64,000 bases of DNA from Phoronis australis (taxonomy: Eukaryota > Animalia > Phoronida): NCBI GenBank assembly GCA_002633005.1, contig NMRA01000090.1, forward strand, positions 571,986-635,985, read 5' to 3'. Positions 7,747 to 40,590 of the stretch are shown here, piece after piece. The position numbers were made by a program, and so were the translations under genes. The notes under the pieces are model-generated. The model was given only the letters and a program-made list of their open reading frames with translations. It ran no database searches and was not told the origin of the DNA. Position 1 is the stretch's first letter; every line of letters begins with the position of its first letter.

Positions 7747-10597
7747 GTCCCAACTGTAGAAATAGTTGACGTCACGAAGTCATGAGCCCCGCAATGAGCA
7801 CAAAAATTCCAAAATGTTGGTTTGGTGGTCTGAAGAATTTCTTTCATAGGACTGTTCTCAATTTGTCATCGACCATTCTTAAATAAATTTATGGAATCGT
7901 GATGCGTTTGCTTGTTTAAACCAAGCTGCCAAATGGTAGATTGAACTGCTTCACGACCACGTATGTAAACAGGTATTCAAAGCTTGGTTCGGCCACCAAG
8001 CCAATTAATCGTTATGCCATAATTTGAGGTCAAACCGTTAATATTATGACATGCAATCATGTGTGATCAGGTTTGTTACTTTGTTATTACATATCACTGG
8101 GTTATCCTCATCTTTGACGAAAGTTGAAATTGATGTGGTCCTGTATTCGCCGTACTAACGAAGTTAGTTTTGCATTTACACAACATACTTTTGTTTTAAA
8201 GTTTGAAGAACACTGTTTATGTCACTTTCTTCAATCATGTTTCTCCAAATATCGTTGGAAATGAAACACCTCGGTAGCTTCGGAATTATTTTGAGTTACC
8301 TTTATTTGCTCCAACTGCAAATAGAAAAATGGTTGTGGTACGTACGGTACAACCATTTTTCCTCTTTGCGTCAGTAACACTATGCATTACATACATGTAC
8401 TGAGGGTCACTGTTGTCAAAATTACAACAATCAGGTTCAATGCTGTGGCATTATACTGGCACAGACATTATATTATTTCGTTTCATATGAAATTATCATC
8501 ATCTAACGAGTCTCCTTGTTGACGGTGGGACTGAAATATCTGTCACATGGTTTTCAGCACCTTGCATGATTAATTGCCAACACTTGACATAGTTTATCTG
8601 TATGGATCTCATCTTTCAAATACGATTTCGAGGCCAGACCATTACCCAGAGTTACAAAACTGCGGGGAAGCAAAGATTAGTATTTTTGGGGAAAGGGACC
8701 TCGAAACCGGCTGCTAAAAACTTCTGATAATTTGCCGCGGACAATAAAACACGCCGCCACATAGGCAAGCGACACTTTTGTAATTTTACGGTTAAAGTTC
8801 GTGCTCTTTTGCACTTGAGGAGGTTACGTCAACTTTAACTTTAAAGGGTAAGTGTGCTTTTTCATTTTGGAACGCATTTTTGATTTGGTGCATTGTGATC
8901 CCCTCTTTTGATATCCTCATATATAAGTATAATTCTGAATAAACAAATTAAGTGCAGAATTCAAACTAGTAAGTCAGCATTTATCACGCCCAGTTCAATT
9001 AATATTTATCTGCCATGTTTGATTTATTTTATTTTGTCATTCCTTCTTATATGAGTAGCATTTTCTAAAATGGAAATCATTAATAGTACGTGAAAGCTGC
9101 ACAACTGCAAGACGACAAACCTAGTATTTAAAATGCACTTCAGAAAAAAGGAATTCTTTATTTACGGGCTATGTGAAGTGTATTGTAAGAGCGTCAGGCT
9201 GCAAACCGGGGTGGAAAATTAAAAACCAGTTAACGTCCATTAAAAAAACAGTGATACTCAGCACGACTGAAAGCGAGATTAAGATTACGTAGGATCCGAC
9301 TCAAGTGTCCAAGCTTGGTTAATTTCCTAACATCATATCTCAGGAATGGCTGATCGGATTTATATGAAACTCAAGGCATTATGAAGTTCTCCCAAACGAT
9401 GGTGATTATAGCAGTATAAGGACAATGCCGTATGTTTTGCTTATTATGTCACTCAGTTAGACCATACTGCCGTCACATGTTTGGTTGAACATATGGCGGA
9501 ATGTTTTGTATACAGAGAGTGTAACCTGTGTGAGGAGGTCCGCTTGACCTGAAACGTTATTTTCTTAGCAATTAAAGTTGTCAACAGTCATCATGATTCT
9601 TTCGGCGTTAATTAGGTTCTGTCTTCACGTCAGAATTAAACTTTAAGCCGATTTGTCACGGAAGATAAATACCTCAATAACTCCCTAAAGATCATTTCGT
9701 AAGGGGGCACAGAACAGTTTTCACTGGGGACTTGCCTATCAGAACACACGTCAATGGACTCTCCGGCAACCTTTCGTCAAAAACTGCATGCAAAGAAAGA
9801 AACTTTTTGAGTCATTTCACACCACAAGCCCTACATATAAGCACAGAAACTTTATTCTGTTTTGTATTTTTGACCCTTTCACACCCCACTGAAAACCAAG
9901 TTAGACTAGGAAAAATAAGGGCAAAAACGCAAATTCGGCACTTTTCATCCCAAAACCACCACTTCCCTCCCGATGCTCGATGAAAGCCAACATTAGATTC
10001 CGAAAGAAAATTTCCTACCGTAACCAAAAATGTGGTCTAAAACTACTGTCAATCAACTTGTTTTTCTGCAAATCTGGCTTGTTTGAGGGCTACATGAAAT
10101 CGCGGCCAATTTCTCAGTTGCTACCCAGATATGCAACAGGAGGCCACCATCTTGAAGAACATTGCAGCTACAGCCGAGCAAGTGATCTATTTTCAATCTT
10201 AACATGTTCTCAAATTCAAACAAACCATATTCACTTGATCTACATACAATACCTAACTAAAATCCCCATAGATTTTAGCGGCCTGATTCTAACAGTTCAG
10301 TACCACCTAACCTTCCGTGATGAACCGGCAATTGTCGCCCATCAGTAACTCATCGTATAACTCCTTACCAATTCGCGTGGCACACTATTGACCACTGAGC
10401 TATATTTATCTCATTGGTTATAACAGTACGCATCGGCATTTTGGGGACGATCAGAAGCTGAGGTTCCCTGTGGGCAATATATGTCAGCACCAATGATTAA
10501 ATGATTAACTATAGTGCAACCTGTATTGATCACAAACATAGTTTGCTCTTAAAATATTCCACTTTTACATGTCGGCCTATCAAAAACACGACACCTT

Positions 10598-10840
10598 GTG
10601 GTGTGGTGTCTTAGACACAGGGTTAGATGTGTAGTTAGTGTAGCTAAGTGTAGTTAGTGCTTGCACTTTCTAGCTTTCAGCTTCTACGACCACCTAGTCC
10701 TCTGAGACGAATTAGGAAGGCATGTGTAAGACCCGCCTTGGTGGCCTTTAACTACCTCTAATCAAGACTCTTGCAGTACCTCCTCATGGTACACCATGGT
10801 AACTGGGCACCCTGCGGCCCCAGGCTAAATTTTGCAAGGG
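10598..10840 (+). ncRNA. HDV-like (delta-like) self-cleaving ribozyme fold at the 5' end of a non-LTR retroelement
   Basis: P1 GUGGUGU (10598-604, alternative 10603-609)/ACACCAU (10791-97). P2 CUCUUGCA(GU) (10768-77)/(AU..)UGCAAGGG (10829-40). P3 ACC/GGU with L3 UCCUCAU (10778-90). P1.1 GG (10798-99). P4 CUGGG/CCCAG (10803-23). J4/2 GCUAA with candidate catalytic C10825. Confidence 0.8.
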
Positions 10841-12350
10841 ATCTCGGAAGAGGTTAGGCTCTTAAAGGTGCAACGTGGATGACCCATCGGTGTATGGATA
10901 TGCTCTGGCGTTCACCAAGTCCCAGCTATGGGCATTGGTTGGGCTCAAGACTTACTACCTTGTCCTGTAAAATACTAGCTTTTGTGGCTGAGCGGACGTG
11001 GTGCCTTCAGATGCTCTCCACATCCCTGGCACTCAACGATCAGAAGAACTGCAGAAAGCTTCAGGTGGAGCCGACCCCCCATCAGAGCGTACGAAGTGTC
11101 TATTGGATACCTTACTTTTCCTACGCACTCAACGTTCAGAAGGGCAGGAGACGACGTATTGTCTTCTTGGTCAGGGGTCCGGGAGAGGTCACTCCCGGCT
11201 GCCACATTGTGTCAGTGAACATATCCGTGCGTGGCAGTTTACCCTTATTGGTCAGTTGCCGCCCGCCTTAAGCCTGGCAGCCCCAGGCCAGTAGGGAACT
11301 GACGCGCCGCGGTTAGCCTGCCCCTTTCGGCGTAGGGGGCTTAGAGGTTGTTACAACCTCGACAGGCTTATCGTTACTCCATCGCCTGCTTAAAGACTTA
11401 TTACAAAAGTAAACGTCTATACGGATGCTGGACGGCGCGAATGGGAAAGTGCAGCCGGACAAAACATCCGCCGTGGCGCCAGAAAGCGCGGACCTAGAAA
11501 GAAACACAGAGGTAAAAGAGCAGGCAAACCTGCCCGACAACTCAAGTACGAAAGACTTCAACTCAACCGTCTCAGGATTGGTTACTGTAATATACGTGGC
11601 ATATGTGGCAGCAGGCATATACTGGATAAAATCTCTGCGGACTACGACATTCTCCTGTTCCAAGAAACCAAATTCAAGGACCTAACAAACTTTGAACTCG
11701 AAGGTTTCATTTTTCCTAGAGAGGGCATCACCAATGGTCTAGCGTACGCAATCAACAAAAAGACAGCCACACTATGGTAGTGCTTGTGGATACTCACAGT
11801 TTCACTACCACTGACAGGCAACTACAGATTATAAGTGTCAATGATTCTGGTTTCCGCGTCCCATTCACACTAGTCAATCTGTATATACGGGGAAACTCCT
11901 CCCCTAGTTGCGACCATTAGAATTTTCTTCTCAATCTGCTTCACATCTATCCCGACATTCTCATTGTTGGTGACTTTAATGCTCGTCATTCCAGCTGGGA
12001 TGTCTACGGTGTGAACCGAAATGGTAAAGGTATCGCCGAATGCCTTCCAGAACTATATTTATATATTCTCAACTCTGGTGAACCCACAAGGATGGCTGAG
12101 AGACCGGGTGACAAGGACTCGTGCATTGGCCTTACTCTGAGCAGCGACAATCTTCGCGACCGTGCTGAGTGGCGTAGGAGTTGTCAAGCTGGAAGCGATC
12201 ACTACTTGTGTGAAGTTCAACTACACCACCAATTAAAGGCTCCAGTAACAACTTAAAAACGGCCCTACAAATGCTGGTTTTGAACTGCTCATCATCGCCA
12301 GTGGTTCGCGCTCCAAATTACAGGTTGTCCACAGCGAATAGTGTGGTGTG
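10598..12350 (+). mobile_element. 3'-truncated or internally deleted APE-type non-LTR retrotransposon (possibly I/Ingi-like), with a degraded endonuclease and no RT
   Basis: Translation of ~11460-12250 gives a basic leader RGPRKKHRGKRAG, then APE motifs IGYCNIRG, DILLFQET, LVNLY, ILIVGDFNARHSSW, LNSGEPTR and GSDH, interrupted by stops and frameshifts. A GC-richer structured 5' UTR precedes it. Confidence 0.85.
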
Positions 12351-13599
12351 GACAAACTGAAACAGTTGGGTGGTGGTCGAATTTACAGTAGACCTATTTA
12401 ATGATGCCTCAGGAAGATACAGCCCCGTGAAGCGGACGAGGACAGAAAAAAACGCGTCAAATGTCAGCAACTTTACTAACAATACGGTAGAACTAGTATA
12501 GCGGAACTTGATGTCACCCGTTAGGTTGTTCTCAATATAGATCGATATAGTGCAATAATATTTTAGTTCTTTATTCGTCGTTTCCATTGTTTAGATAAAA
12601 GCAAAATATTATTTTCTAGCACCAAGCACAAATTTTCAAAAAGCCTTAAACATTAAAAACAATGGACACACATGGACACCGACATCGTAGCCCCTGAACT
12701 GTGTTGAGAAAAAGTCTAGTTACCAACGTTTATGCACATTTGCGCAGAAACAGCTGTACAAAGGACGCAAAACGCCTGTAGAGAGAGCGCCATCCAAACA
12801 ATAGTTTTCAAGTTTGTAAAGTTTCCAAAAACGCCAATAATATAAACGTGTTTTGCATCTGATAAATTTGCCCTGCCCATAACGGGGCTTTCTTAGGGGT
12901 ATTAACAATTTTTGTCATTTTATCTGACAACGGATAGGTTTTTGCGTGTTTTTCGGCATGCAAATGTGTCGCAATCACAGGCTTTCCTTACTAACTCGCT
13001 CGGTACTCGAAGTTCACAAAAATACGATTTGAATTTCTTTTTTATGGATGAAATACAATGGTAAAGCTCAAAATATCACTGGATATTAATTAATACAAGG
13101 GTTAAAGTTATTTTTTGCAAACTGGGTCAAATTATTCCGTCGAAGGTGTATTGAGTAAGACGCTCGTACTACACATGCGTACACAGTAGTTCATAAAAAA
13201 ATGTCACCGTCGAAATTCGACAAAATTTGCGGTTAAAAATTTGACGTTCAAAATTTTGACTAATTTGTTTCAATGCTGGATGAATCTCCTGTTGCTCTAC
13301 GCACTCTAGCGACGCATCTGTAAATGATTTGCGTGCCCTTGTAAACACATCCTCAGTAAGAAGTACGTTGAAAAATCCAACTGAGTTTCCAAGTGTCGAA
13401 CTGTGACAGTTTTAACAATTCAAGCATTTTTCAAATGCACTTTCTTTGAACAAGTTAAGTTAAATGAAAGCAACAAAGTGAACTTGTTGAAATTCTTGTC
13501 TTATGAGCAGACTTTGAAAACGCAATGTAAAAACTGTAGTTTGAAAAACGGCTGCATTTCCCCGTTTAGCGTTCTAAAAATCGAATATTTCTTTCTTCT

Positions 13600-16353: not shown

Positions 16354-19300
16354 ATGTTCTCACAAAACGAGACTAAATTGACGGTTTATTTCTTCAGAGA
16401 ATCATCTTGTTCGCAACGGGTGAGTTAATTACATGACGGCGTTCTGCCGTTCAACAACTTTTCTAGACATGAGGGATTCTGAGCGTGCGATATTTGTTAA
16501 CTGCCCAGCACAGTCTTTTGTCCCGTATGACAATAAGTAGGCCAATTATTTTCAAAGGGTTACTTAAAGCTGGCAGAATGTATTGCCTTAACTTCTGTTG
16601 TAGTAGGGCGATTTTGATGATTCACCACACTAAACATGATCAGCATTTGACAAGGGATTCAGAAATGCTATTGGTTTATGTTCAAATATGTTACAACTTA
16701 ACTTTTAGCAGCACAGCCTAGTCAGGCCAATACGATCTGATCGGAGATTAGAGCAATTATCGTACAAAACAGAGCCGGTCCTCCAACCATAGGCTAAATA
16801 CCAGAGTGGAGTTAATCAGTCGTGTAAGATATTGGCTACAGGGGTGATCTTCCCAACTTTAATTGTTGTTGGGCTATAGAATCGGGCAAGATGGGAGCAA
16901 CGGGAAAACGTCGTAATAAGGAAAACATGAGACCTCTGGTACAACTTACATGTATGTGTTACATAGGCTATATACATATAGACCTCGGGCAATACTGCGT
17001 TAATCACGATGTCAAGTTAATGTTGATCTGATTTTATTGTATGTGTATTTATGGATACAAGAAAATAGCCCGCATAGCTACTAGTGACACGTACAACGCT
17101 AAACAGCCGTCGCTAAACAGCTTCAGCTGTATCAAACTACAAGCGTATAATCGTAACCCAATTTACTGTAGTGAATCCTTAGCAACAGATGTCGCTGTGT
17201 AACCTAAAAACCAGCACATCTTAGGCCTGGCTGTCCACACGCTACCGGTTATCGTGTACCACTTTTTGACCCCTGTCTCTACATACTCCCCTTTTATTCG
17301 GGAATAACCCACTACTACGAAGGTTCACTACTCCGTAGGTTAACCATTCCGAGGTTTCATTGCTCTGAAGGATCACTGCTCCAAAAATAATTGAAATTTC
17401 TGTCTCTGGCAGATGCAACTTTTTATTTCTAGATGAAAAAGTACTGTAATTGGAGTGATGCGCTTGCCGAAAACAAAATCCTGGTACCAGTACACTTTGT
17501 TTATGTTTCCTGCGTATGCAAGATTAGGCTTCAAGTTCAAAACATAAATTTATCAGTAGGAGCAAGTGTTTTCATTTTTAAACTAGCCCCACGTTTGACT
17601 TAACCCGTAAAAGATCCACATTTCCAAAATTCGAGCTCTCCTATATTATAGGCCGCGTGCGCGCATGCCAAATCAACCATAATTTTAATACAATTGTCTT
17701 TGTCAATATTAAAAGACATAACATTTTCCATCTAAAATTAAACGTTTTAATTAATCGCAAGAACGGATCAAATGAATGGGTCAATTCGGGTATTCTTCTG
17801 TCGATAAAATTTAAACTTTAAATTGGTTACATACCCCTACTCCAAATAACACCCAATTGCACCATACATTAACTATTAAACATCCAAGATATACTAAAAC
17901 ATTTTGAAAAGCATCACCACGTCTGCCAAACAAACGCACTTCCATAATTATTCCAGGGAATACCTAAACAGTATGAGATAAACATGGCAGGCATTACGAG
18001 CTACGCTAAAACAACAATTCAAACAACATTTTCCACCATCAATTGTCTAACAGCGGAAACAACACGAAAATTGACGGTGTATCGTAGGCAGTGTGATAGT
18101 ATAGAATCATGCTGCGTCACGGAGGACTTGTTTGGCAGATTCTACAACCACATACAGCTGCTCTCATTAAGGTTCCTTTACTTTTTTCAAGCGCTAAACT
18201 GAAATAGTAAGTTTACGACATTTTAGTACAAAAAGTGCAGCTAAAACATTTTCATTTGAAAGGTACTGGCATGTTTGATTGAAAAAGACATCCCGTATAC
18301 TGGAGTAGAGGTGAACATCTGGGCTCTGGAACAATATGAGCCGTGGTACGCTCGGATCAATCCGCGAATGGAGGTGCCAACATTGAAGCACGGTGACAAG
18401 ATTATCACAGACTCAGCAAGGATCATAGACTACCTGGAGCAGCAATTCCGTACGTAAAGTTAATGGGAGTTGATCTGATGTTTTAATTACTTGATCACAT
18501 GATACCAATAGCTACAGAAGATGGGCCGTACATGCACTTCTTGTAGGCAAGGTATATTGTGAGATCTGTCAGGCGCCTTCTCTTTGTAATGAATTTGACA
18601 TAACGATTCAAAATTAAAAGAATGCATGCTGTACTTCTATTTCATTCATACCGTGCTACTTGAAATGTCCCCTCAAATGGGACATCTGTTGTCGGTTGCA
18701 CGAAAATTCCTAATTAGGTTCTCCAAATCTTGGGTACCCATGTTTCTTTGTTAACTCAAAAACGTTATGTATTTCTCTTAAGTTTTTTGCTACAAGTTTC
18801 CATAGACTAATGAAATTATCTTATGTTATATATGAAACCTGAGTTCTTATTTCAATGAAAATGAATGGTGACTCACTCCTTAAATTAGGATCGGCTGCAT
18901 GAAAAAGTCTCTATTTTTATAACATTTGAGAATTCCAAGTAGACTTCACATCGGTGTGTATTCAGCTAAAATTGACTTAGTAACGCAGATAAAAACCAAT
19001 TTAGAAAGAGAAATCACTGTTTGCACAAGTCCGCAAAAGTGGTGAAAAGTTAAGGAACTTGGATGAGTCCCTGTTTGGGATTGTTTCATGCAACCGGACA
19101 CTGATGTACATGTACGTGTAGAAAAATTGATTACTATAATTCAACACCAGTCTGACAACCTGAATCATCTATTACAGCGAATCACCCAATGAAAGAAGTT
19201 TCAGAAACCTACGACCGAATGTTGAAACTTCTAACTGAACCGGACAAAGTGAGCAAATGGCCGTTCATTGGAGCCTTGACTATCGGCTCGTTCGTTTACC

Positions 19301-22300
19301 CTGAATATACGGAGAACTGTCAGATGTCGTCCCTAGTGTTGCGACTCAAACGAGGTGAGCACGACTCCGTTAAATGTATCTTCACGCGTAGCGCAATCGT
19401 TGCCTTATGGACTAGTGTTGCTTTTGCCATTTGGGCCAGGTCATTGGCTCCAAATAAGACTTATTAAAAAAATGGAATTGGCACTTTCCATTTTAGGAAT
19501 CATTGAAGAGCAACGTTCACGTAAGAATCGTTTCTATGGGAGACATGAGGCTTGAGTGAATCAAAATTACCAGAAATTGCTCAGACTATCTTTACCTACT
19601 ACATTAATTAATGTTATTAGGATTGATGTAACATTGTTGGAAGAATCTTACGAATGTTTCTGTGAGAAAGAAATCTTGAATGGAAAACTGTTCTCAAGAT
19701 AAAAACATTCAATCCAAGCCATTTGCAACTAAAAGAATGTAAAATGAAACTTTGCGAGAATGTTCCCGCCAGAGGAATTGCGATGATTACTGTAAAAACG
19801 CTTTTGTTCAAAAACGCGGTCACGTGATATTTTATTTGTACAAATACCTTTCCAAGATTTAAGCGCGGCTATAATGCCGCTCTTCGTTACAAAAATATAC
19901 TTTTGATTTAGATCACTTACCATAATTATGAAATTGTTCATTAATTTTGTCAAATACGATGCAATAAATTCATTGTTGTCTAGCACACTTAGTTGTGAAC
20001 ATTTGTTAGGTAAGTCATCCTTTGAGCCACTAACTGTAAAGCTGCTGTGTGTTTCGTAGACGCCAGAACCTCGTGAAAACGCAATATCAGGCAAAACATC
20101 ACGTGATATCACCTTGAATTAAGCAAAAGACGTGATCCAACTAGCTCCGTCTCGAGAATCAAGTTAGAGTTCAACAACGCTAGGGCCTACGCTAGGACCT
20201 CGCGAAAATCTAATCAACACCAGGGGTTCTCATATAAAATACACGGCAATATATCACGTAATCTCGCGAAGTCTTACTTTTTAACGAGGTCCTAGCGTTA
20301 CTGAACCCTGGGGTCTATGGAAGTCATCGAGTGACGAGTGACACTGACACACTCTCTTAATTTCTGCTCAATAACGAGTGAAGATAATTGCTACTATGCC
20401 TGTGTTCAATAGCCATAGATAACACCTTGCTACCCTCTCAATCTTTGTTCCATAGCAAGTGTCCATACATTGTTTCTCTCTAAATCTCTCCTCTATAGCT
20501 ATTTACGACACACTGCTACAGTTTCAGTCTCTGCTTAAAGACGCTACGTCTCATTGAGACTTTGAATATTCCAATTTGTAACAAGCGCCACCTAGTGACT
20601 TGCTGGAGAATTGCGTGTACAAGGGGCCTCCGTTAATAATCTGTATAATTTATTCGATTACTAGTGATCAACATGATTTTTACAAACAAAAATTCCCTGT
20701 ACTGTAACATTGATTGCTTAGAAATATTTCTTAACAATCATAATACCGATTTCTGTTTGCTCAGCGTAAATATTTACTCTCTGCATTCTAAATTTGACCA
20801 GCTTCAGGCTATTTTACGAAATTTAAAAAAACGTTTGATGTTTGACAGCATCTGCTTACAAGAAACGTGGCTGGATTTTGATGACGATTACGGATTTTAC
20901 AAATTAGAAGGTTAGAGTGTGACAAAAAATAGTTAGAAACCGTCTGTTCCAAACATGGGGTCCTGGTTATTTACGTCAGAGATACGATTAATATAACGAA
21001 TGTTGAAACAATTAATAAGGCATGAAGATTTAATAATTAAAGTGAAGTTGAGCACTGGTAAATAATTTACCATATTTAACATATACAGATGCCCGTCAAA
21101 TGTTCAGAGAAACCTTGATGACTTCATGTTAGACTTTATTCCAACAATTTCAAATTTCATTGTTAAAGAGGGAGGCTTTTTGATAGCTGGTGACTTCTAA
21201 GTCAATTTACTACAAACTATCAATAGTACAAAATTTTGTAAGTTTTTTGACCATATGTCAAACTTGTCTCCTCTTTCTAAGAGAACATTTCCTACTCGTC
21301 TCACCAACAACACGTGTGCTCCAACCACGAACATGTCGGAGGTTGATATACTGTTACTGTTACTTAATTTATCCGACCATTTCCCCATATTTTATCTTTC
21401 AATATTAATAACAAAAGCAAACCTCATCGACCTAAATTTATTTCGCTAAAGTCAGTCAAAAAATCTCATGCCAATGTTAAATCTGATTTGGCTTCAATTG
21501 ACTTTGATTTGTCTCAAAATCCTAACAACAAATGTAATCACTTTAGAACAATTATTTTAGATTTCCTAAATGAACATTTTCACTCCAAAACCAAACGCTT
21601 TAACAAATATAAACATAAACTCAACGACGGTATTACATTGGGCATATTAAAAGCAATAAAAGTGCGAGACAAAATCTATAAAAAGATGAAAACCACACCT
21701 CCTGATTCTATTTTTGTCGCATTTACTTATTAAAACTGCGAAGTTATAACAATATGCGTAAATATGTAATAAAAGAAACTAAACGCCAGTGCTATGAAGA
21801 ACAGTTCAAACAGCGCAAACAGTAAATAGCTGATCAGTTCAAAAGCTATTTTATTAACATTGGAAAGAATTTGGCTTCTCAAATACCGATACGCAATGAA
21901 CGTTTCCAATGACGAGTTTTATTGGTTTCAAAGCTACCTTGAAAATAGAAAACAGCTTGTCTGCCTTGATACTGTCACTTCGTTACAACTTGACATTTAT
22001 ACAGGTGTACCACGGGAATCCATTCTAGGACCACTCCTATTTTCAGTTATGCAAATGACATCACTTTCTCCAGCAAGTCACAATTCATTGTGCTTGTTAT
22101 GTCCTTTCCACGTTAACAATAATCATAGCCTCAGCGATCAAACCATCAGAATAAATAATGCTCTACAAGATGTTCTTGATATCAATATATTATCCCTCAA
22201 CACAAGTAAAACTAAATTTATTGTACTTCCATAAAAAATCAGCAACTCTGACATCCCTCTAATCAAAATCAACAATTAATAGACTTGAAAATTTCAAATT

Positions 22301-25300
22301 TTTAAGGTATTTTTGTAGATAGTCATCTTTCCTGGAACAAGCATGTTGAGTAACTTTCTAACAAAGGTGCCAAAACTGTGGGCTTCCTCTTCGTGTTGAA
22401 ACATTATTTTCCCAAACACACACTCCCGATGATATGCGATGCTCTTATTCCATCACATCTATATTTTGGTATAACACTATGGGGGTTCAATAATTGTACG
22501 AGATTAAAACTTCTGCCGAAAAAAGATTTGAAAAGTGTTACCAGTTCTTCGTTTTTTTCATGCACAGAACCAATTTGCAGGGAAATCAACACTTTTTCTT
22601 GACGACATACTTAACCAAGCTTGCCTTAAATTCTTTTATGAATTCAAACATAATCAACTTTTTGATAACATTTTTTTCCAATTCCAGTCACCAAGAGATC
22701 TTCCTAGAATATGCAGTCAACAACCCATCCTAAAACTGGTCACCTAAAACGAGAAAAGTTGAGAAAATTCATTAATCTCACAATACCAAATTTAATAAAC
22801 AACAGTATCCTTCCGAGATATGTAACAGACAAAATCGACACGTATAGCTTACATGGGTTCTCCTTGTATTTGAAAATTACATATTAAGCACTTACAGCTC
22901 TCAATGTAACGCTCTACATTGTTATGTATGTTCTAATTGAAGTAACCGCGATCACCTGTCTTACATTGTGGATGTAACTTTTTCTGTTGTTATCTATATT
23001 GTTCTTCTTAATTTTTAATATCTATTTTATTTATTGTTACTCAGTGGTAAGTTTTTTATGATTTAAAGAATAAAAGTTTCTCTCTCTAAAAAGAAAACAA
23101 AACAATTTGTAAATAAATTGCAGTTTTAAAGAAGCACCACAACTGATACACTTAAAAACAAGTGTTAACGTATAAAAAACCTATTAATTCCAAGTAATAC
23201 GCAATTGCTATTTGATAGTGAAATAAATAATAAAATCTTTGCCTTGTTTAATTAGGGTAACGATGAAATATTGCCATATATTAATTAATTCATGAGAAGA
23301 AATTGGCGCGAAATTCTTGCCTCCCAAAACGGCACTTCAGGAGTAGAGAACGAATGCTTAATTAAATTACGAAAAGCTTTAATTAAGTGGAAAATATGTC
23401 TGGGATAATCAACAAAAGTTATTTTTTGCTAAATCTGACATGAAAAAGGCTGGCTTTGCCTTTAAGACCACCACAATACGATCGATGCTGAACGATGGTT
23501 CGACCGCGACATAGTTATTTGGTGGTTATACCATCAACAAACTCACGAGTTAAAAGTTCTGTATCCGTGTTCGTTAAAAACGAAATGTAGAACGAGTATA
23601 TTGGAGCGAGTGAATTTTACAAACTACAGATACGTTAAAACGCGCCGGAGGACTCGATTGTGCTTTTCCTGAACCTTTCTGTAGATACTGGGTTAACTGA
23701 ACAGACTTATCGAAAAAGTGCTGTACTGCATGCGCGGTGTTATTGAGTCGTAAGTTTGGCCGTCGAAAAAAGTTCCACTTATGAATGTTGTGTTGATGTT
23801 CAAGGCATCTCACTATTCACTTAAAAGTAGTTCCATTGCCAGACAAGGCGTAAGTACCATGTTTATTGCCCTCACAGCCGTGTGGGTAATGAACTATTGA
23901 AATCGCTGATGAAAGCGTGTCGAGTTTATAGTCCCTGTAACCCATGAGATTCCATCACGATCATTTTACGTTATGCTCTGGTGTGCGCATGAGGTGTACA
24001 GGTACGCTATGGTAATTGAAATTCATTGTGAAGACGTTGTACTATTGGATAGTAAAGGCATATTGTCTGAAAAATTGTTTCATTTCCGTTTTAAGCGCAA
24101 AGTAGATCCTTGAGACTCTCCAAACCTGGACGGCTAGCACAGATGGTAGAGAAGTTGGTTGAGGCCAATCCAGACCTGAGGGGTGTGTACCAAGAGAAGG
24201 TGGAATGCATTCAGTCTAGGATAGATGTGGTAGCAACTGACAGCGACAGTGACAACTTTCTGACACGAGCATTAGATACCGCTGACAGTCTGTTGCTGGA
24301 ATGCGAAACACACCTTAGGAACAGTGAATACGGTAATACTAAGTCTACAAGAGGCCGATGTATCAAGATTTGTTTTCCTCTAAACCCAGTATCCGATTTG
24401 CATGTATTCGGTGGAGCACCCAGACATTCACTTTAAAGGTCCCGTATGCTTTCACTGACACATGCACTAGTGACACTGAACCCGGGGGATTGTTTCTCGT
24501 TGCGTCGTTCTTACATAATAGATGTAACCTATTGGGAATGCCCAAAGTTAAATTAGTTGTACTTTACCTTGCTTTATGTTTGACAGAATCTTATGAAATC
24601 TAGGGTTTTTATTTGCGTTTGGAAACAGCTCGACAGAAAGAATAATTCAAGCAGCCAGTTTTTCCAGTGATCGGACAGATGTTTGAAGGGCTATATTTTG
24701 TCTTTTGAAGACCTAAAGTGGATTCACGAATGACTGAATGAACTTCATTTAATGATGGTGACGTGTGTTAAATACGTTATAACATTTTAACCTTGTTTGA
24801 AATATATCATCAATGCTAAAGGGCTTAAAAGTCATTTTTGTACCCATGTCTTGTTTTACAAGTTGCCGTTTCATGGCTGGTTATTTCATGCGCCGAACTG
24901 TCAACATTTCATTACCACCACAATTTGACCAGTCCTTTATATCACTCGAGTAATTTCTCATGTTGGACACCACACATGTAAACTCGACTGAAAGCAGTCG
25001 CAAAATATTGACTATTCTCCGATTTTCGACAGCGTGACATCCAATAATTGCTCAGTGAAACATGGAGCACTCTTCGGAAATTCCTCGAAAATGTCACCTA
25101 CTTGAAAAAGGTACATTTACTCAGTTTATAGTACAATCCTTAAGTTCACAAATTGCAACCATCATGAATAAATACAAAAGTACGTACTTTGCACTTTGTC
25201 GACGACAACTATCTTACTGAAAACCCGTTTTAATAACACGATGCCCGTTAATGAGACTGTGTCGTATTTCTGTTTATCAGGCCAGCGTCAAGACGAACAG

Positions 25301-25591
25301 TGGTTGTGCGGTCCAGCATTTACATTGGTAGATATATACTTGGTTACCATTATTTCGCGACTCAATAAGTGTGGCCTCTATAACAGATTGATGAAGGAGC
25401 GCCCTTTATTGAGGGAGTACTTCAACGAATTCCTACACAGGAAGTCTGCATCGGTGTACAAGCAGCCTCTTCTTGGCGTCATGGCACGATCACTAGCTAA
25501 GCGCTTCATCAGATCGTATGGACTAACCATTGCAGTATCGACTGCTATATTGTTTGGAGCCTATTATGTAGCTAAAACCTACACGGAATAA
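16354..25591 (+). CDS. GDAP1: GDAP1-like tail-anchored glutathione S-transferase, copy A (~325 aa, 5 exons)
   Basis: Exons 16354-16419, 18263-18449, 19178-19354, 24096-24332 (alternative donor 24323) and 25281-25591 are all GT-AG with consistent phases and total 978 nt. Motifs: SQRV..LIEK, YEPWYARINPRMEVPTLKHGDKIITDSARIIDYLE (GST-N), WLCGPAFTLVDI (GST-C), and a C-terminal TM YGLTIAVSTAILFGAYYVA. Confidence 0.9.
17310..17385 (+). repeat. ~15-bp tandem subunits (CTCCGAAGGTTCACTA-like)
   Basis: 4-5 degenerate copies in intron 1 of copy A. Confidence 0.55.
20166..20310. mobile_element. MITE-like insertion specific to copy A intron 3
   Basis: The ends are inverted (GTTCA..AACGCTAGG..ACCTCG / CGAGGTCCTAGCGTTACTGAAC). 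The paralogous site in copy B reads GAGAATCTGGGGTCTA without the insert (~36650). Confidence 0.7.
20348..20540 (+). repeat. Degenerate ~41-44 bp minisatellite (copy A version)
   Basis: Units are bounded by CTCTC(T)AA..ACACTGCTA and are homologous to 36676-37030. Confidence 0.6.
20630..23090 (+). mobile_element. Degraded, internally deleted CR1/L2-group (Crack/Daphne-like) LINE in intron 3 of copy A
   Basis: APE motifs SVNIYSL, DSICLQETWL, NIYRCP, IAGDF and LSDHFPIF. RT motifs WFQSYLENRKQ, GVPRESILGPLLF, a degraded YADD region and LSLNTSKTKF. C-terminal C..CYVC, then AATAAA at ~23069. Many stops and frameshifts; absent from copy B. Confidence 0.9.
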
Positions 25592-26692
25592 CGAGGATTG
25601 AGGATCCTTTCCAGCAACGATGTCATTTGCTACAAGCTCATAGGACTTGAGCAAAATTATTTTCACTCTCTCAAACTAGAGATTGTTTAGCGATCGCTCA
25701 GATTTGTCACAGTTACACAAAAGTAGCACCCTCCTCTTGACGAAAGGTTTCTCTGAGAATGAATTTCTATAGTGACGAATAACTAATGATGTTTGGTCGA
25801 GAAATAATCTACTGTAAGAAGTAATGAGAAACTACATATTGAATACCAGGTCTGTATGGTGGGTAGTAGATCAATCGTGTCTTCCCAGTTGGTACTAAGT
25901 CAACATCAGTATTAACTCGTTGTTCGATGCCGCTAAACGAGAGGAAATTTAAGCTGGGTTTCCACAGACATACATGTACATCGTATCTGTATCAATGCTA
26001 CTGATACAATTTACGGATTTTTGCACCAAGCAAATTATTAACTTGCACGTCCCCTGAAATAAGCGATTCTCCACGCAAGTACACATTTGTCACGTTGATT
26101 TATTATCACCTATTATGAATGTGGAAGTCGTCAACATATTACTTCCGGAGAGCGCCCAATTCACAGCCATTTTTTCCACCTATAGAGACAAGAGTCCTCG
26201 CGAGCTTGTGGGTAAATGTGAGGTGCATTACTTGAACACTTCCATACGATTCCCGGCTAGTCAGTAGTATTCAACTGTTTCAATTGGCTCGTGGCTGCCA
26301 TTGCTTGAAAAAAAACGATGACTGGTTGCGAAAGATCATTTTTGACTGTTTAAAATACAGTGACAAAATGTGTGTATTAAGAAATATATTTTTGCTGTCA
26401 ACGAAGTGGGATTTATTGGAATATCTGCGCTTCTGCTTATTTGTTACTCGTTCCACGTTTAAATCTTGGATATGCAAATAACTATGCAACAGTACCTGTG
26501 ACCAAAGCAATTTGGGTTGAAGTTACTAAAACGGGTGTCAGTATGTAAAGTGTATTGCGGAATTTGCATTCATTATTTTATTGTTACTCAAGTAGATGAA
26601 AATACATTAAATACAAATATTTAGCCCAAAAGGCGAACCATTTTATCCAGGCTTGTAACTTACTTAAGCAAAATATTATAAAGTTTATCATC

Positions 26693-27336
26693 TCAGACTA
26701 AACGAAAACGATTGTATTCCTACCGGTCGGATAGTAACTGTCTTATCAACAGACTAAATAATAACGATTGTATTCGTACCTGTCGGTCAACTGTTTGATC
26801 ATTATAGACTTTTAAGTACAGTTATTCCCGAGGGGAATTTCAACTTAAAAAAATCTATGTTCACATTTTGAACATATTCCCTGCCTAGTTAGAAATGCAA
26901 ATACGAAACTTTATTTTCATGGGACTATATCGCGATGTCACAAGTGTCCTTGCTGGGTAGTTTCTTTACGCAGTTTGCGGTCTGTTTTAATCTTGATCCC
27001 CGTTCCTCACAATCATATCTTGTTAAGTATCCCTTAATCTTCCCCAGTGTGTCTCACTATCACAAGTGAGATGACATTGAGAAACACAGAAGTACGGACG
27101 GATACGATACGGGATGACATGAAGTAACAGATAAACATTGACGAATACAACAGGGAGACATGGAGTGACAGAAGGGTGTGGATAGACACGATATAGGATG
27201 TCATGATGTGATAGAGAAGTATGGGTGAATAGGACACAACAGACAGAAACACTGATCTGGAGGGAAAGAGATGGGAGGGTGACATATGTAAAGGGTAGTA
27301 AGGACGGTGCATGTGATTGGTCACGTAATAAGAACG
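26693..27336 (+). repeat. Segment homologous to the last intron of the adhesion GPCR (42847-42990 and 43763-44150); the last ~270 bp are inverted
   Basis: Near-identical run CAGTTTGCG.TCTGTTTTAATCTTGATCCCCGTTC.TCACAAT.ATATCTTGTTAAGTATCCCTT at ~26971 and ~43826. Confidence 0.85.
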
Positions 27337-33596: not shown

Positions 33597-36500
33597 ATGT
33601 CATTCTCACAAGACGAGACTAATTTGACGCTTTATTTCTTCAGAGAATCATCTTGTTCGCAAAGGGTGAGTTGATTATATGAAAACTTGAGTGCTGCGGT
33701 AAAGTAACTTACTAAATATGGCATATTAGTGTTCCACGTATATACATCTCGGCAATGCTGCATTAATCACAATACGAAGGTAATGTTGAATCAGTTTTAT
33801 AGTACGCATATTTACGGATACAACTTGTATGAAGAAAACAGGCATAGCACAATTTCGCACGAACAGATTAGTGTGTCGTCTTGTTTCAAACGTCACATAA
33901 TATGCTCCTCGTGAAGAAAGTTTTCAAATCTCCTTTAGGAAAACGGACAGACGTTTCCATTTGTTGCCATGCACTATATGTTGTAGGCATGTAACAGTGC
34001 CATTCAGTAGGTTGCTCCTTAGCCTATAAAAAGCTGGGTAAGGGGCATACTATGACCACAATTTTAGAATCTAAAGTGTGCGAGAGCATTCTGAATCTAT
34101 AGTTGGATTTTTCCTAGCACTTGCAAGAGCAAAACTGAAAAAAAAAGAAAATGTACGATTTTTTCAAACACTTTATTACAAAAAGTGCTGCTAACACATT
34201 TTCATTTGAAAGGTACTGGCATGTTTGATTGAAAAAGACATCCCGTATACTGGAGTAGAGGTGAACATCTGGGCTCTGGAGAACTATGAGCCATGGTACG
34301 CCCGGATCAATCCGCGAATGGAGGTGCCAGCTTTGAAGCACGGCGACAAGATTATCATAGACTCAGCAAGGATCATAGACTACCTGGAGCAGCAATTCCG
34401 TACGTAAAGTTCATGGGAGTCGATCTCTGGTTTTGAAATTATGTGATCACGGGATGCCAATAGCTATTGTAGACGGGGCGTACTTACACTTCTTATATAG
34501 GCAGGAAATATTGTGGGCTGTCAGACGCTTCCTCTTTGTAACAACGATTCAAAATTGAAAGAATGCATGCCCGGCGTACTTTCAACTCATTCATCTCGCG
34601 CTACTTAAAATGACACTACAAGTCATCAAATTGCAAACCAATGGCGTCTTGTAGGTATTTGTTGTCTGTTGGATGAAACAGTCCTAAATAGGTAGGCCTA
34701 CTCGACTAAGTTCTCCAAGTCTTCGGTACGCTTGTGCCTCTGTTAGCTCAAAAAAGAGTTCCCCATAGACTAATGACATTTTCTTATAATAAATTTGAAA
34801 ACTGAGTCCTTATTTCAATGGAAATGAATGGTGACTCACTCCTTAAATTAGGGGTGGCTGCATGAAAAGTCTCTATTTTTATAACATCTGAGAATTCCAA
34901 GTGGACTTTGCCCTCGGTGTGTATTCTGCTAAAGTTGACTTAGTCAAGCAGATATAACCAATTTAGAAAGAAAAATCTCAGTGATTGCACAAGTCCGCAA
35001 AGGTAGTGAAAAGTTAAGGAACTTGGATGAGTCCCGAGTTTGGGATTGTTTCATGCAACCGGACGATCGTGTGAAAATTGATTACATAACTGTAATTCAA
35101 CGCCACTCTAACAATACGAATCATCCATTACAGCAAATCACCCAATGAAAGAAGTTTCAGAAAACTACGATCGAATGTTGAAAATTCTAACTGAACCGGA
35201 CAAACGGGTGAGCAAACTGCCGTTCATTGTAGCCTTGACATACGGCGCGTTCGCCTACCCGGAATATACGGAGAACTGTCAGATGTCGTTCCTAGTGTTG
35301 CGATTCAAACGAGGTGAGCACGACTCCGTTATTTGTAGAACTAAAGCAATCGTTGTCTGGTGCTTCTGCCATTTGAGCCAGGTCATTGGCTCCAACAATG
35401 ACGGTGCACCATAGGGGGTTAGGGGTGCTCAATCCTCCCCTTATTTCAATGCTGGACCACGCATTGGCGTGGACGGCGCGCACCACAGCGTGCTGTGGGC
35501 TTTTGCCCCCACTTATTTCAGTGGTGTGCCCCCCAAACAAATATTTAAAAAAACGGAATTGACACTTTCCATTCTAGGACTCAATGAAGAGCAACGTTCA
35601 TGGAAGAATCGTTTGTATGGGAGACATATGGCTTGAGTTAATCAAAATTACCAGAAATTGCTTAGACTATCTTTATTTACTCGATTAATTAATGTTTGAT
35701 GATTGCTGTAACATTGAGGCAAGAATATTACGAATGTTTTTGTGAAAAAGAAGTCTTTTCACTGAATGGAAAAGTGCTTTCAAGATCAAAACATTCAATC
35801 CATTAGCCATTTGTAACTAACAGAATGTAACAACAAAGTTTGTGAGAATATTCCTACCACTATGTTCATTTGTCAAAAAAGATGCAATTACTTCATTACT
35901 ATGCCGAGTGAGATCTCGATTCGTTACTGCTTAACTAGACCAGGCTCTACACGTCGGTTTGACACGGCCTATTGACAAATCTGCCGGGCATGGTCGATTG
36001 TTAGTAGCAAATTTGAGATCAGCTTATGAACGGTAGAGTGGTCGAAATGAAAAGTTAGATCCATTGAGATAGGTTAGTAGGCACCCATGCTTGAAGGAAG
36101 ACATTCTTAAAAGGATACCAAACCCGGTTTTGGCCTAAAAATGGATAATAAAAAGCGACAATCCCATCCAATTCCCTGAAAGAAAATAACCTTAGACAAT
36201 CCTTAATAGTTTGAAGAAAATTTTGAAAACTCCTTTTGAAGTCTGCTAAACGGGAAATCGTGACCTACAATTTTAGCGAATTATAAGGCAACTTTGGATA
36301 AAGACAACTCACCAAAAACCATAATAGCAAATCTGTGACGCAGGAAGCACAAGTTTTTAGTTATTTCCTGCTTTTATCTGTCAACATTGGCATCAATAAT
36401 CATTAGCAGGTGACAACGAGGAGTGGCTAATATCATCAGAACAGGGTTTAGTATCGCCTTCAAAAACTTTGTCTAGCGCATTTAGTTGTGGACATTTATC

Positions 36501-39500
36501 AGATAAATCATCCCTTCAGCCATTAAATGTAAGCTGCTGTGCCTTTCGTGGACGCTAGAATCTGGTGAACACCCAGAATGGGGCAAGACGTTGCGAGATA
36601 TCACCTTGAATTACAAGCAAAGGGCGTGATCAAACTAGCTGCCGTCGCGAGAATCTGGGGTCTACGGAAGTCATTCTCTCAATTTCTGCTCAATAACGGG
36701 AGAAGATATACTGCTACTCTCGCTGACTGTATTAAATAGTGATAAGTGACACATTTTTACCCTCTCAGTCGGTCTTCCATAGCTATTGACGATACATTGG
36801 TTTCCTCTAAATTTATCCTCCATAACTTTTGACGATAGACTACTACTCTCTCAGGGTCTGCTTCAGAATTAGTGGTAATACATCGCTACCTTCCAAGTCT
36901 CTAAACAAGATCAAGTGGCAGTACACTGCTACTGTCTAACTCTCTGCTCAGTAGCCAACGACGAAACACTGTTACTCTCTAAGTCTGGCCTCAATAATGA
37001 GTGCCGCGACAGACAATACACAGCCACTTTCTCTCATGCGCGCAACCGGGACGGAGGTGCTCGGGGAACTCCAACGAGCCCCCCATTTGGCAAAGTGGGC
37101 GAAAATGTCACCCTCGAAGAAACAAAAAAGTAGAAAACGAGACAAAAGACAGAAGTCTACTAAATGACAGGAACTATAAAAATTCGGCGAGTGCACAATT
37201 CATAGCTCTCAACGTGCCCCGTATATTTTAGTAAAAGGACCAGATTCCCAAAAATTCGAGCCCCCATTTTTAAGCTGGGTGGGCGCATGTCTGTGTATCG
37301 AGACGAGTTCCTCTTTCTGCTCAGGGTTACCGCAAACGGATATCCACGAACTCAACTTTCTGTCATACGTAAACGATAACTGATATTGCAGCTCGTACTA
37401 AGACATGAAAATTTGGCCAAAGGTGTATGAACTACATGTAATCGCTAGCTGCGTTCAAATGTTCTCACTCTGACTTAAGCTGACAACTCAGCTCAGTGTT
37501 GGAGGAGACACCTGAGGTCGCTATTTCCTCAGGCATACACCATGACCATGGGTATTCAACAGTAAAGGCATGTTCTCTCAAAAGTTGTTTCGTTTCCGTT
37601 TTAAGCGCAAGGTAGAGCATTGAGACGCTCCAAAACTGGATGGCTAGCACAAAAGGTAAAGAAGTTCATGGAGACCAATCCAGACTTGAGAGGTGTGTAC
37701 CAAGAGAGGATGGAATGTATTCAGTCTAGGATGGATGTGGTAGCAACTAGCAGTGACAGCGATAACTTTCTGACACAAGCATTAGATACGGCCGACAAAC
37801 TATTGCTGGAATGCGAAACACATCTTAGGAGCAGTGAATACGTAATGCCAAGTCCACTGTGGCACCTCTTAGTGGCAGTTATGTTTTTTGCGCCTAATTC
37901 CTCCTAGTGGCAATTCCATTTTTTGTTTTCCTTGGTTTCTCTGGAGTACCTTGACAGATTTTTATGAAATTTAGTCAAGATCTTTGATGACACATACCAG
38001 TTTTTGGATGGATTCGACAAATTTTGTGCCATATAGTGGCCATTTTTATGTTCCAAATAAACACTCGTAGAAGCACATCGTCTGCGGTGCATTCGTGGGC
38101 GCATTTCCACTCTCCGTGTTGCCCTTGTTTATTTACAGAAAGAATAATTCAAAGGACCAGTTTTTCACTGATTGTACACACGTTTGAAGGGCAATGCTTT
38201 ATCTTTTGAAGACCTAACGGAGATTCATGAACGACCGGAAGAATTCCATTAAATGATCGTGACGTGTATTATAATATTTTAACCTTGGTTGAAATGTTAT
38301 AATAAGTCATTTGTGCACTCATCCCTTGTTTTACAAGTTGCCATTTCACGGCTGGACAGGTTATTTCATGCACCGTACAGTCGGTGTTTTCCATTACCCG
38401 GACCCGCGACAAGCACACCATGGCCAGTGCCTTATATCAGTCGAGTCATTTCTCGTGTTGGATACCACACATGTGCACTGGAGTAAATTCTGAGTAATTC
38501 TCAATAATTGCTGAGTAAGTCATGGAGCACTATTGGAAACATTTTTCGTAAATGTCAAGACTGCTACGTAACGTATTTGAAAAAAGTACATTTACTCAGA
38601 TTTATGTGAATCCTTAAGTTCACATATTGCAACCAGTTTGAATGAATAGAATTTGGTTTACAAAGTACATACAATGTAGCTTTCACTTTGTCGACGACAA
38701 CTAGCTTTCTTACTCAAAACCTCAAATTCCTCGATTGGATTGCTACTAATAGTAGGTTTCAAAATGCGCTTCTTTTTAACAGTTTGGTTTTATCGCGCCA
38801 AAGACTTCAATAGCATCTAAAACTAGTTCTCGAGCCTGAGTCAGTCTTGAAGGGATTTGGGTACAGAGTTGATGGTCGCCAATTCACGAGCTGTACTGGA
38901 ATAAGTATAGTTTGACGTAAAAGTCTCAGCAATCTGTTTTATAGATGCAAGTGGTCTGAAATAAAGCTGCATCTCGCTTTGCTTAGGTAGCTAAAACGAA
39001 AATCTACTTAGGCCTTTAACCCTCACTTATTCGCAATATAGACTTCTATTTCCGTTACTAAGAACACCTAAACCATAAGTTACTCTAGAAAATGTTTCAG
39101 CTTGTTAGGGTTGACTAACTAAAATTTCTAAATAAGGAAATGGCCCAGGCACTAATTACCTGCCACTTTAGTTGCTAACGGAAATAGAGTCCTGTCAGTG
39201 TAAGAAATAACAGGAAATCGATTTTATGAGAGTAATATGTCTATTTCGATTTTCATTTTCAGCCACTTGTACAGGTCAAAATTCAACTATTACGATTTCT
39301 TGGATGGAACGTGGCTTCTAAGCCGCTTTAGTAACACGATGCTCCTTACTTACACTATCTTGTATTTCTACTCATCAGGCCAGCGTCAAGACCAGCAGTG
39401 GTTGTGCGGTCCAGCATTTACATTGGTAGATATTTACTTGGTTACCATTATTTCACGACTCAATAAGTGCGGCCTCTATAACAGATTAATGAAGGAGCGT

Positions 39501-39689
39501 CCTTTGTTAAGGGAATACTTCAATGAATTCCTACACAGGAGGTCTGCATCAGTGTACAAGCAGCCTCTTCTTGGCGTCATGGCACGATCGGCAGCTAGGC
39601 ACTTCATCAGAACGTATGGACTAACCATTGCAGTATCGACTGCTGTATTGTTTGGAGCATATTATGTAGCTAAAGTCTACAAGGATTAA
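33597..39689 (+). CDS. GDAP1: GDAP1-like tail-anchored glutathione S-transferase, copy B (~324 aa, 5 exons)
   Basis: Exons 33597-33665, 34213-34399, 35134-35313, 37606-37833 and 39379-39689 total 975 nt in frame using the GTGAAT donor at 37834. Collinear with and highly similar to copy A, including intron flanks. Confidence 0.85.
35400..35545. mobile_element. Short GC-rich insertion specific to copy B intron 3
   Basis: Interrupts the A/B alignment between TTGGCTCCAA and AAAAAA.GGAATTG; G-runs at the left end and C-runs at the right end. Confidence 0.55.
36676..37030 (+). repeat. Degenerate ~41-44 bp minisatellite, about 8 units
   Basis: Units such as CTCTCAATTTCTGCTCAATAACGGGAGAAGATATACTGCTA, CTCTAAATTTATCCTCCATAACTTTTGACGATAGACTACTA and CTGTCTAACTCTCTGCTCAGTAGCCAACGACGAAACACTGTTA. 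Confidence 0.65.
37035..37289. mobile_element. Non-autonomous DNA transposon (MITE) with CATGCGC termini; relatives at ~57045-57295 and ~17580-17668
   Basis: Terminal inverted repeats CATGCGCGCAACC...GGGTGGGCGCATG. The 3' end TTCGAGCCCCC...GTG(C/G)GCGCATG is shared by three loci. Confidence 0.7.
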
Positions 39690-40541: not shown

Positions 40542-40545
40542 TGTT

Positions 40546-40590
<45 letters not shown>
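40542..40590. repeat. (GT)n microsatellite
   Basis: About 49 bp of GT dinucleotides with two interruptions. Confidence 0.95.

What the first reader, a model, noticed from the sequence alone, without database searches (positions are those of the whole stretch)
10598..10840. HDV-like self-cleaving ribozyme heading a non-LTR retroelement
Seen: every element of the nested double pseudoknot is present in order. P1 is GUGGUGU/ACACCAU with the G1-U wobble, followed by a ~160-nt J1/2, P2 CUCUUGCA/UGCAAGGG, P3-L3 ACC-UCCUCAU-GGU, P1.1 GG, P4 CUGGG/CCCAG and J4/2 GCUAA. Known: antigenomic HDV has ACC-UCCUCGC-GGU and GGCUAA, and HDV-like ribozymes with long J1/2 process the 5' ends of R2, RTE and L1Tc/Ingi retrotransposons. 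Inference: this is the 5'-processing ribozyme of a retroelement family in this animal, with cleavage 5' of G10598 or G10603. The class is known, but this family may be undescribed.
Basis: partly seen in the sequence, partly recalled or inferred. Interest (0 to 1): 0.88.

Follow-up and report, generated by a model that had tools for sequence, protein, structure and literature searches.

The report
Self-cutting RNA heading a marine LINE
These 243 bases have every paired segment of a hepatitis-delta-type self-cutting RNA and form the front end of a broken jumping gene; the family likely uses this RNA to cut its transcript free, this copy carries a change predicted to cripple cutting, and the arrangement is a new example of a known kind.

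Summary
Observation confirmed. All five HDV-like helices are present; my descriptor hits only here (0 full hits in 200 shuffles). An element-free contig leaves the window exactly at T10597|G10598 and another copy starts at 10599, so the element begins at the predicted cut, favouring G10598 over G10603. Downstream lies a broken APE endonuclease frame ending at 12270. A relative with an APE-RT-RNase H protein (L004/P0170, 43% identity) carries the same core with compensatory P2 and P3 changes. Correction: this copy has A at the G25 position (10786), where most other copies read G; that change impairs tested ribozymes, so this copy is probably crippled. The element is neither R2 nor RTE but an I-group-type lineage matching no clade reference motif I could search; Ingi membership is untested. 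Extras: two sister insertions start with a different HDV-like fold, and a second covarying RNA domain (11243-11346) sits where the frame, lacking a conserved AUG, opens. Cleavage and P1 covariation are not shown. The scan noted this kind of 5' ribozyme before on other DNA (43 notes, at least 11 genomes), none like this sequence. New member of a known kind.

The parts
10598..12270 (+). 5' fragment of an APE-type non-LTR retrotransposon (3' part, RT and RNase H missing in this copy)
   Evidence: 5' boundary; reads and contigs continue with other letters after 12270; translated homology ends 12268-12271
10598..10604 (+). P1 5' strand; predicted cleavage 5' of G10598; first bases of the element
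   Evidence: 7 of 7 pairs; element-free contig diverges after 10597, other copy starts 10599
10603..10609 (+). alternative P1 5' strand (repeat of the same 7 letters)
   Evidence: 7 of 7 pairs; not favoured by boundaries
10605..10767 (+). J1/2, 163 nt, not unusually structured; one contig skips 10640-10746
   Evidence: fold z -0.40; joint table
10755..10777 (+). P2 5' strand (10768-10777) with two outer extensions (10765-10767, 10755-10759)
   Evidence: same extensions in L004
10778..10790 (+). P3-L3-P3; A10786 stands at the G25 position
   Evidence: G read in other copies; G in L004
10791..10799 (+). P1 3' strand (10791-10797) and the two P1.1 guanines
10803..10823 (+). P4 hairpin
   Evidence: nearly identical in L004
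10824..10828 (+). J4/2 with predicted catalytic C10825
   Evidence: unchanged in L004 and no variant of 10825 listed
10829..10853 (+). P2 3' strand (10829-10840) and extension partners (10842-10844, 10849-10853)
   Evidence: a 2-nt deletion in another copy removes the bulge
10920..10932 (+). start of a motif shared with RTE 5' UTRs and the Ceph-domain of SINEs
   Evidence: same letters in PMC5786205 supplement; other copies carry 14 more letters here that extend the match; also in L004, L007, L013, L016
11243..11346 (+). second conserved structured RNA domain, with a possible pseudoknot 11260-11264/11328-11332, at the point where the reading frame opens
   Evidence: 77-89% identity in relatives; 6 of 28 pairs with double changes, 0 of 500 shuffles; model R1 finds it in 15 of 28 loci
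11394..12270 (+). basic N-terminal stretch and APE endonuclease, broken by a frame change near 11757 and stops at 11918 and 12254
   Evidence: (Exo_endo_phos_2 E 6.6e-15)

Best explanation
The motif has the full HDV-like double-pseudoknot pairing and begins at the first base of an APE-type LINE, so the family likely uses it to cut its RNA out of read-through transcripts 5' of G10598, while this decayed copy is predicted to cut poorly or not at all. Shown: the pairings, the coincidence of P1's first base with the insertion boundary, the APE frame, a relative with the same core and compensatory P2/P3 changes. Inferred from the known HDV mechanism: C10825 acts as general acid and a Mg2+ ion near U20.G25 activates the 2'-OH; cleavage leaves an uncapped 5'-OH RNA whose first base becomes the first base of each new full-length insertion. 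Inferred, weaker: because the RNA is uncapped and the frame has no conserved AUG, the second structured domain at 11243-11346 would serve translation initiation (or protein binding).
For: Pairings. Boundary: X3 record 9 matches the upstream flank and 10531-10597 and then reads other letters; X1 record 1 also stops at 10597; X1 record 7 starts at 10599 behind another flank. Covariation: L004 (encodes residues 1-829 of P0170 at 99.9%; P0170 has APE, RT, RNase H) aligns to the core with score 86, 0 of 300 shuffles; its P2 keeps 8 of 10 pairs with largely different letters, P3's first pair is G-C instead of A-U, P1.1 and P4 intact; its core aligns in register with Rfam RF02682 although below threshold (12.4 bits, E 2.3). 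A variant contig in two samples keeps P3 by U.G, restores G25 and loses the P2 bulge. Two sister insertions with unrelated flanks (28 of 100 identical) start exactly at the P1 strand of another HDV-like fold. G25A impairs or abolishes cleavage in tested ribozymes (PMC3774820 section 12; PMC13635239 passages).
Against: No cleavage data. P1 covariation not obtained: in L004 the best P1 5' partners pair only 6 of 7 (3 candidates), and the variant contig with three changes in the P1 3' strand has no visible partner. One contig (X3 record 12, depth 5) has five changes in the P2 5' strand and one in P1.1 with no compensation listed. Core covariation rests on one distant relative. The strict descriptor found 0 full hits in 20 relative loci scanned. 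No Rfam hit at threshold. X1 record 1 has depth 2, and the element-free contigs could be paralogous host repeats.
Confidence: 0.85

Rival explanations
1. The fold is real but no longer catalytic in the family; the 5' end is set by an internal promoter, and the pseudoknot protects the RNA end, binds the element's protein or helps translation.
For: L1Tc combines promoter and ribozyme in its first 77 nt (PMC3383444 passages); non-cleaving roles of the fold are described for R2 (PMC6765202 passages; PMC13708176 passages). P4 letters are conserved far beyond pairing needs between the window and L004.
Against: Catalytic C, J4/2 and G25 are kept in L004 and in most other copies; the boundary coincides with the P1 start in this family and in the sister family.
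Confidence: 0.1
2. The ribozyme is real but cuts at G10603 (or at both sites), the second copy of the P1 strand.
For: 10603-10609 pairs 7 of 7 as well; either of two duplicated P1 strands is proposed to be usable in R2 (PMC3774820 passage); X1 record 7 lacks G10598.
Against: Two independent insertions keep 10599-10602, which cleavage at 10603 would remove; 10606-10610 can be tied up in a hairpin with 10614-10618.
Confidence: 0.12
3. This very copy still self-cleaves at a useful rate despite A10786.
For: The same substitution does not fully eliminate cleavage in HDV (PMC3774820 section 12); all helices are intact.
Against: No cleavage in the Nasonia R2 variant, none seen in 60 s for C. briggsae G25A; weakly structured 163-nt J1/2, and long unstructured J1/2 slows such ribozymes (PMC4908430 passages).
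Confidence: 0.2
4. Chance resemblance in the UTR of a decayed repeat.
For: No Rfam hit at threshold; the descriptor was tailored.
Against: 0 of 200 shuffles, exact boundary, compensatory changes in L004.
Confidence: 0.02

Closest known systems
HDV-like ribozyme of L1Tc/ingi retrotransposons (L1TcRz; PMC3185411 listing, PMC3383444 and PMC6765202 passages)
   Same: HDV-like fold starting at the first base of a single-ORF APE-RT-RNase H LINE without a fixed target
   Different: L1TcRz fits in 77 nt; here J1/2 is 163 nt and P2 is extended; no 2A-like NPGP motif seen in the upstream translations; RT motif of the relatives differs from the Ingi and Vingi references read
R2 5' ribozymes (PMC3774820, passages and section 12)
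   Same: long J1/2 (216-498 nt in silkmoths), same core, G25A-type change in dead copies, duplicated P1 strand
   Different: R2 has a restriction-like endonuclease and an rDNA target; this element has an APE and no rDNA around it
RTE LINEs and their 5' UTR / Ceph-domain (PMC5786205, passages and supplement passages)
   Same: ribozymes reported at RTE 5' ends; the start of the RTE/Ceph UTR motif occurs in this lineage
   Different: relatives carry RNase H and group with I-type RTs; that RTE lacks RNase H is recalled
Rfam RF02682 HDV-F-prausnitzii
   Same: P3-L3, P4 and J4/2 of L004 align in register
   Different: 12.4 bits against a threshold of 44; no hit for the window copy

Membership tests
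HDV-like ribozymes | five helices P1, P1.1, P2, P3, P4 in nested double-pseudoknot order | tested here: met
HDV-like ribozymes | 7-bp P1 starting with G at the cleavage site | tested here: met
   7 of 7, G.U first; coincides with insertion boundary
HDV-like ribozymes | catalytic C75 equivalent and following adenines in J4/2 | tested here: met
   C10825, same in L004
HDV-like ribozymes | U20.G25 reverse wobble in L3 - this copy | tested here: not met
   A10786; also read as A in 6 of 6 X8 reads, so not an assembly slip. This copy is therefore filed as a degenerate copy, not as a working member
HDV-like ribozymes | U20.G25 reverse wobble in L3 - family | tested here: met
   G in 3 of 3 X3 contigs, 2 of 2 X1 contigs, 5 of 5 X7 and 2 of 2 X6 reads, and in L004; no change listed for the one X5 contig
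HDV-like ribozymes | covariation in P2 and P3 | tested here: met
   L004 and variant contig; one decayed contig breaks P2
HDV-like ribozymes | covariation in P1 | tested here: inconclusive
   L004 best partner 6 of 7; partner of the variant contig not visible
HDV-like ribozymes | Rfam model match at gathering score | tested here: not met
   sub-threshold RF02682 alignment for L004; the long J1/2 falls outside the models' span
HDV-like ribozymes | Mg2+-dependent self-cleavage needing the catalytic C | not testable with these tools
   bench assay needed
APE-type non-LTR retrotransposon | APE endonuclease domain | tested here: met
   PF14529 E 6.6e-15
APE-type non-LTR retrotransposon | reverse transcriptase downstream of APE | tested here: inconclusive
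   absent from this truncated copy; present in the closest relatives at 43-51% APE identity
APE-type non-LTR retrotransposon | dispersed copies and empty sites | tested here: met
APE-type non-LTR retrotransposon | target-site duplication and 3' tail | tested here: inconclusive
   3' end lost; no duplication longer than a chance 7-mer
R2 clade | restriction-like endonuclease and 28S rDNA target | tested here: not met
   APE domain, no rRNA match in the window
RTE clade | no RNase H, RTE-type RT (definition recalled) | tested here: not met
   relatives have PF00075 and I-type RT
Ingi clade | single ORF with APE, RT and RNase H | tested here: met
   relatives P0166-P0172; no ORF1 between ribozyme and APE
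Ingi clade | N-terminal 2A-like peptide (PMC3708506) | tested here: not met
   no NPGP motif in the translations read
Ingi clade | RT groups with Ingi references in a tree | not tested
   no Ingi reference was among stored proteins; only motif comparison by eye

The most novel reading that the evidence does not exclude
An unnamed, RNase H-bearing LINE lineage of invertebrates, outside the six clades known to carry 5' ribozymes, starts its RNA with an HDV-like ribozyme, has exchanged one ribozyme architecture (long J1/2, short P4) for another (2-nt J1/2, about 90-nt P4) between sister families, and uses a separate conserved pseudoknotted domain to start translation without AUG.
Probability: 0.25. 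Interest if true: 0.62.

Novelty: new member of a known kind. Interest (0 to 1): 0.42.

Why it matters
HDV-like ribozymes at LINE 5' ends are established (six clades listed in PMC5786205). This case adds a lineage that matches no clade reference motif I could search, gives natural pairs for testing (G25 and A25 copies; two ribozyme architectures in sister families), and points to a compact covarying RNA domain at the AUG-less start of the frame. How uncapped, ribozyme-cut retrotransposon RNAs are translated is still argued; that domain is a directly testable candidate. Small 5' modules of this kind are also used in RNA-based gene insertion systems (PMC13708176 passages).

Tried and rejected
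No own genome is held, so no copy census. Rfam gave nothing at threshold for the ribozyme or the second domain. Pattern scans: 0 matches in metagenome contigs with this copy's core, 0 in viral contigs; 17 matches in prokaryote genomes, printed and judged by eye to be chance hits in GC-rich DNA without P2/P4/J4-2 order. Word-based protein search for longer relatives of the APE piece: 0 of 217 candidates; the HMMER search then worked. No RNA holder listed by the run search; RNA reads laid gave depth 0-7 on the element and no pile-up of starts or ends, which says nothing for or against cleavage. Idea that the window and L004 keep a vestige of the sister family's long P4: weak, 13, 14, 41 and 210 of 300 shuffles reached the scores; not adopted. 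The 14 letters that follow the empty site were not found exactly downstream in the window. First pair count on the second domain used a mis-registered structure and was replaced. The ESM Atlas only confirmed an RT domain. No host gene identified around the insertion (28 frames scanned, one GST hit at 25 kb). Earlier notes by place and by sequence: nothing.

Full report
1. Observation. Pair by pair: P1 10598-10604/10791-10797 7 of 7 with a first G.U; the same seven letters recur at 10603-10609 and pair equally; P2 7 of 7 (10768-10774/10834-10840) plus three pairs across a 2-nt bulge; P3 3 of 3; P1.1 2 of 2; P4 5 of 5; J4/2 with C10825. P2 continues outward in two short helices. My descriptor, written with the sequence in view, hits once in 64 kb on both strands and gives 0 full hits (10 without P1) in 200 dinucleotide shuffles. 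Rfam has no hit at threshold. J1/2 (163 nt) folds no better than its shuffles (z -0.40).

2. It is the front end of a LINE. Downstream are a basic stretch and an APE endonuclease (PF14529, E 6.6e-15), broken by a frame change near 11757 and stops at 11918 and 12254. Translated homology ends at 12268-12271, and reads and contigs of other copies run on with other letters after 12270, so RT and the 3' end are lost here; no target duplication could be found. Six public runs were laid (6 of the 9 listed). In one search, X3 record 9 (depth 16) matches the upstream flank and 10531-10597 and then reads unrelated letters; X1 record 1 (depth 2) also stops at 10597; X1 record 7 (depth 30) begins at 10599 behind a different flank; X3 record 10 begins at 10597. 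The element thus starts at G10598, the predicted cut. Two insertions keep 10599-10602, which argues against G10603. Caveats: only 17 of 65 records were shown, both DNA samples come from one study, and the empty-site contigs could be paralogous host repeats.

3. Other copies and relatives. Position 10786 is G in 3 of 3 X3 contigs, 2 of 2 X1 contigs, 5 of 5 X7 reads and 2 of 2 X6 reads, but A in 6 of 6 X8 reads and unchanged in the one X5 contig. This is the G25 position (register confirmed by the RF02682 alignment of L004). G-to-A there abolished cleavage of a Nasonia R2 ribozyme, though not fully of HDV (PMC3774820 section 12), and left no product in 60 s for a C. briggsae ribozyme (PMC13635239 passages). 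A variant contig seen in two samples keeps P3 through U.G, lacks the P2 bulge, has loop changes in P4 and three changes in the P1 3' strand whose partner I could not see; in X1 it skips 107 nt of J1/2. Against the reading: X3 record 12 (depth 5) has five changes in the P2 5' strand and one in P1.1 with no compensation listed. A metagenome scan with an APE alignment gave 28 loci. My strict descriptor found 0 full hits upstream of the match in the 20 best loci; a looser motif found 1 of 28, L004. L004 encodes residues 1-829 of P0170 (99.9%), a 1264-aa APE-RT-RNase H protein 43% identical to this APE. Its core aligns to the window with score 86 (0 of 300 shuffles): P3's first pair is G-C for A-U, L3 has G25, P2 keeps 8 of 10 pairs with largely different letters, both P2 extensions, P1.1, P4 and J4/2 are kept. 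Its P1 5' strand is not clear: three candidates pair 6 of 7, none 7 of 7; the copy may be cut short at the 5' end. By eye, of six distinct insertions that reach the UTR, three (L001 group, L007, L010 group) are 5'-truncated before the ribozyme region.

4. Sister families start with a different fold. L013 and L016 are separate insertions (flanks 28 of 100 identical) whose similarity begins at L013 1266 / L016 606. That base opens a strand that pairs with the segment after a P3-L3-P3 unit: P1 7 of 8 in each, P2 7 of 7 and 6 of 7, P3 3 of 3 and 2 of 3, a possible P1.1 of U-A/U.G and A-U pairs, about 90 nt of P4 (fold; my fixed P4 register was off and is not evidence) and a J4/2 with a C. This is a weaker, non-canonical call on decayed copies, but the boundary again sits on P1. 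It shows no sequence similarity to the window's core (258 of 300 shuffles).

5. A second RNA domain. Window 11243-11341 is 77-89% identical in relatives whose endonucleases are only 41-51% identical. On six sequences, a structure taken from RNAalifold plus a hand-drawn pseudoknot has 93.5% of cells paired and 6 of 28 pairs with double changes (0 of 500 shuffles; slid controls at most 2). The sequences are related and the structure was derived from them, so this is support, not proof; the pseudoknot helix itself has no double change and competes with another pairing. Other copies read C at 11304 and G at 11328, each restoring a pair. The model finds it in 15 of 28 loci and Rfam does not know it. 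The APE frame opens at about this domain, and no AUG is conserved across the eight sequences translated. The UTR also holds the start of the RTE/Ceph-domain motif; PMC5786205 reports that domain in Ingi-3_AC and an R4 element too.

6. Which clade. The closest full-length proteins have one ORF of about 1150-1260 aa with APE, RT and RNase H. Named relatives at 33-45% identity come from a land snail, a sea slug and a barnacle. In a midpoint-rooted RT tree of 135 of 210 stored domains (the rest removed as 80% redundant) they form one clade (support 1.00) with the motif D[LF][EQ]DAYN, apart from sequences with Nimb-like, I-like and fungal Tad1-like motifs (labels are mine, from motifs). The motif has 0 occurrences in the RTclass1 file of PMC3708506 (supplement file 2 searched, parts 3-5 of 51 read; file 1 could not be searched). 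No Ingi reference was in the tree, so Ingi membership is open.

7. Mechanism. Shown: pairing, boundary, APE frame, covariation in P2 and P3. Inferred from the HDV mechanism (PMC13635239 passages): general acid catalysis by C10825 with a metal ion near G25, cutting 5' of G10598 and freeing the element RNA from read-through transcripts. Inferred: this copy is crippled. More speculative: the second domain starts translation of the uncapped RNA.

8. What is known. [quoted passage not shown] Seven searches showed no paper on this lineage; (HDV-like + ribozyme + Nimb + retrotransposon) returned 0. Ruminski 2011, Webb 2009, Webb and Luptak 2011 and Kojima 2011 were not held and not seen, and Repbase was not searchable; they may already list this family. 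Other papers seen as passages only: PMC3383444, PMC4035085, PMC6765202, PMC8256844, PMC13708176, PMC11203168. Earlier scan notes hold 43 findings of this general kind in at least 11 genomes, none similar in sequence.

9. Verdict. A real, decayed copy of an HDV-like 5' ribozyme of a LINE: a new member of a known kind. The unplaced clade, the alternative ribozyme in sister families and the second RNA domain raise it above routine. Interest 0.42.

Noticed in passing
L013 1266-1410; L016 606-749: Sister elements of the same APE lineage start with a different HDV-like fold (2-nt J1/2, about 90-nt P4, non-canonical P1.1, first base C or a preceding G); boundary coincides with P1.
   Followed up: partly
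window 11243-11346: Conserved covarying RNA domain with a possible pseudoknot at the opening of a frame without a conserved AUG; not in Rfam.
   Followed up: partly
window 10920-10932: Start of the RTE 5' UTR / Ceph-domain motif in an RNase H-bearing, non-RTE element; this copy lacks 14 letters that other copies have.
   Followed up: partly
window 10441-10473 and 10549-10586: Two short high-copy repeats just upstream of the insertion, with many different flanks in reads and contigs.
   Followed up: no
window 12275-12506: Another repeated piece joined to the broken 3' end; no match to the relatives' DNA or proteins.
   Followed up: partly
window 18218-27334 and 34168-44159: Segmental duplication (68-89% identity) carrying two glutathione S-transferase C-terminal exons at about 25172-25588 and 39204-39686.
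   Followed up: no
L016 894-993: Long near-perfect inverted duplication inside the 5' UTR of this copy, which scores weakly against miRNA precursor models.
   Followed up: no
proteins P0166-P0235, P0333-P0350: A widespread RT clade with the motif D[LF][EQ]DAYN, absent from the RTclass1 reference file searched; one member is labelled as from a bacterial MAG (P0341), probably animal DNA in the bin.
   Followed up: partly
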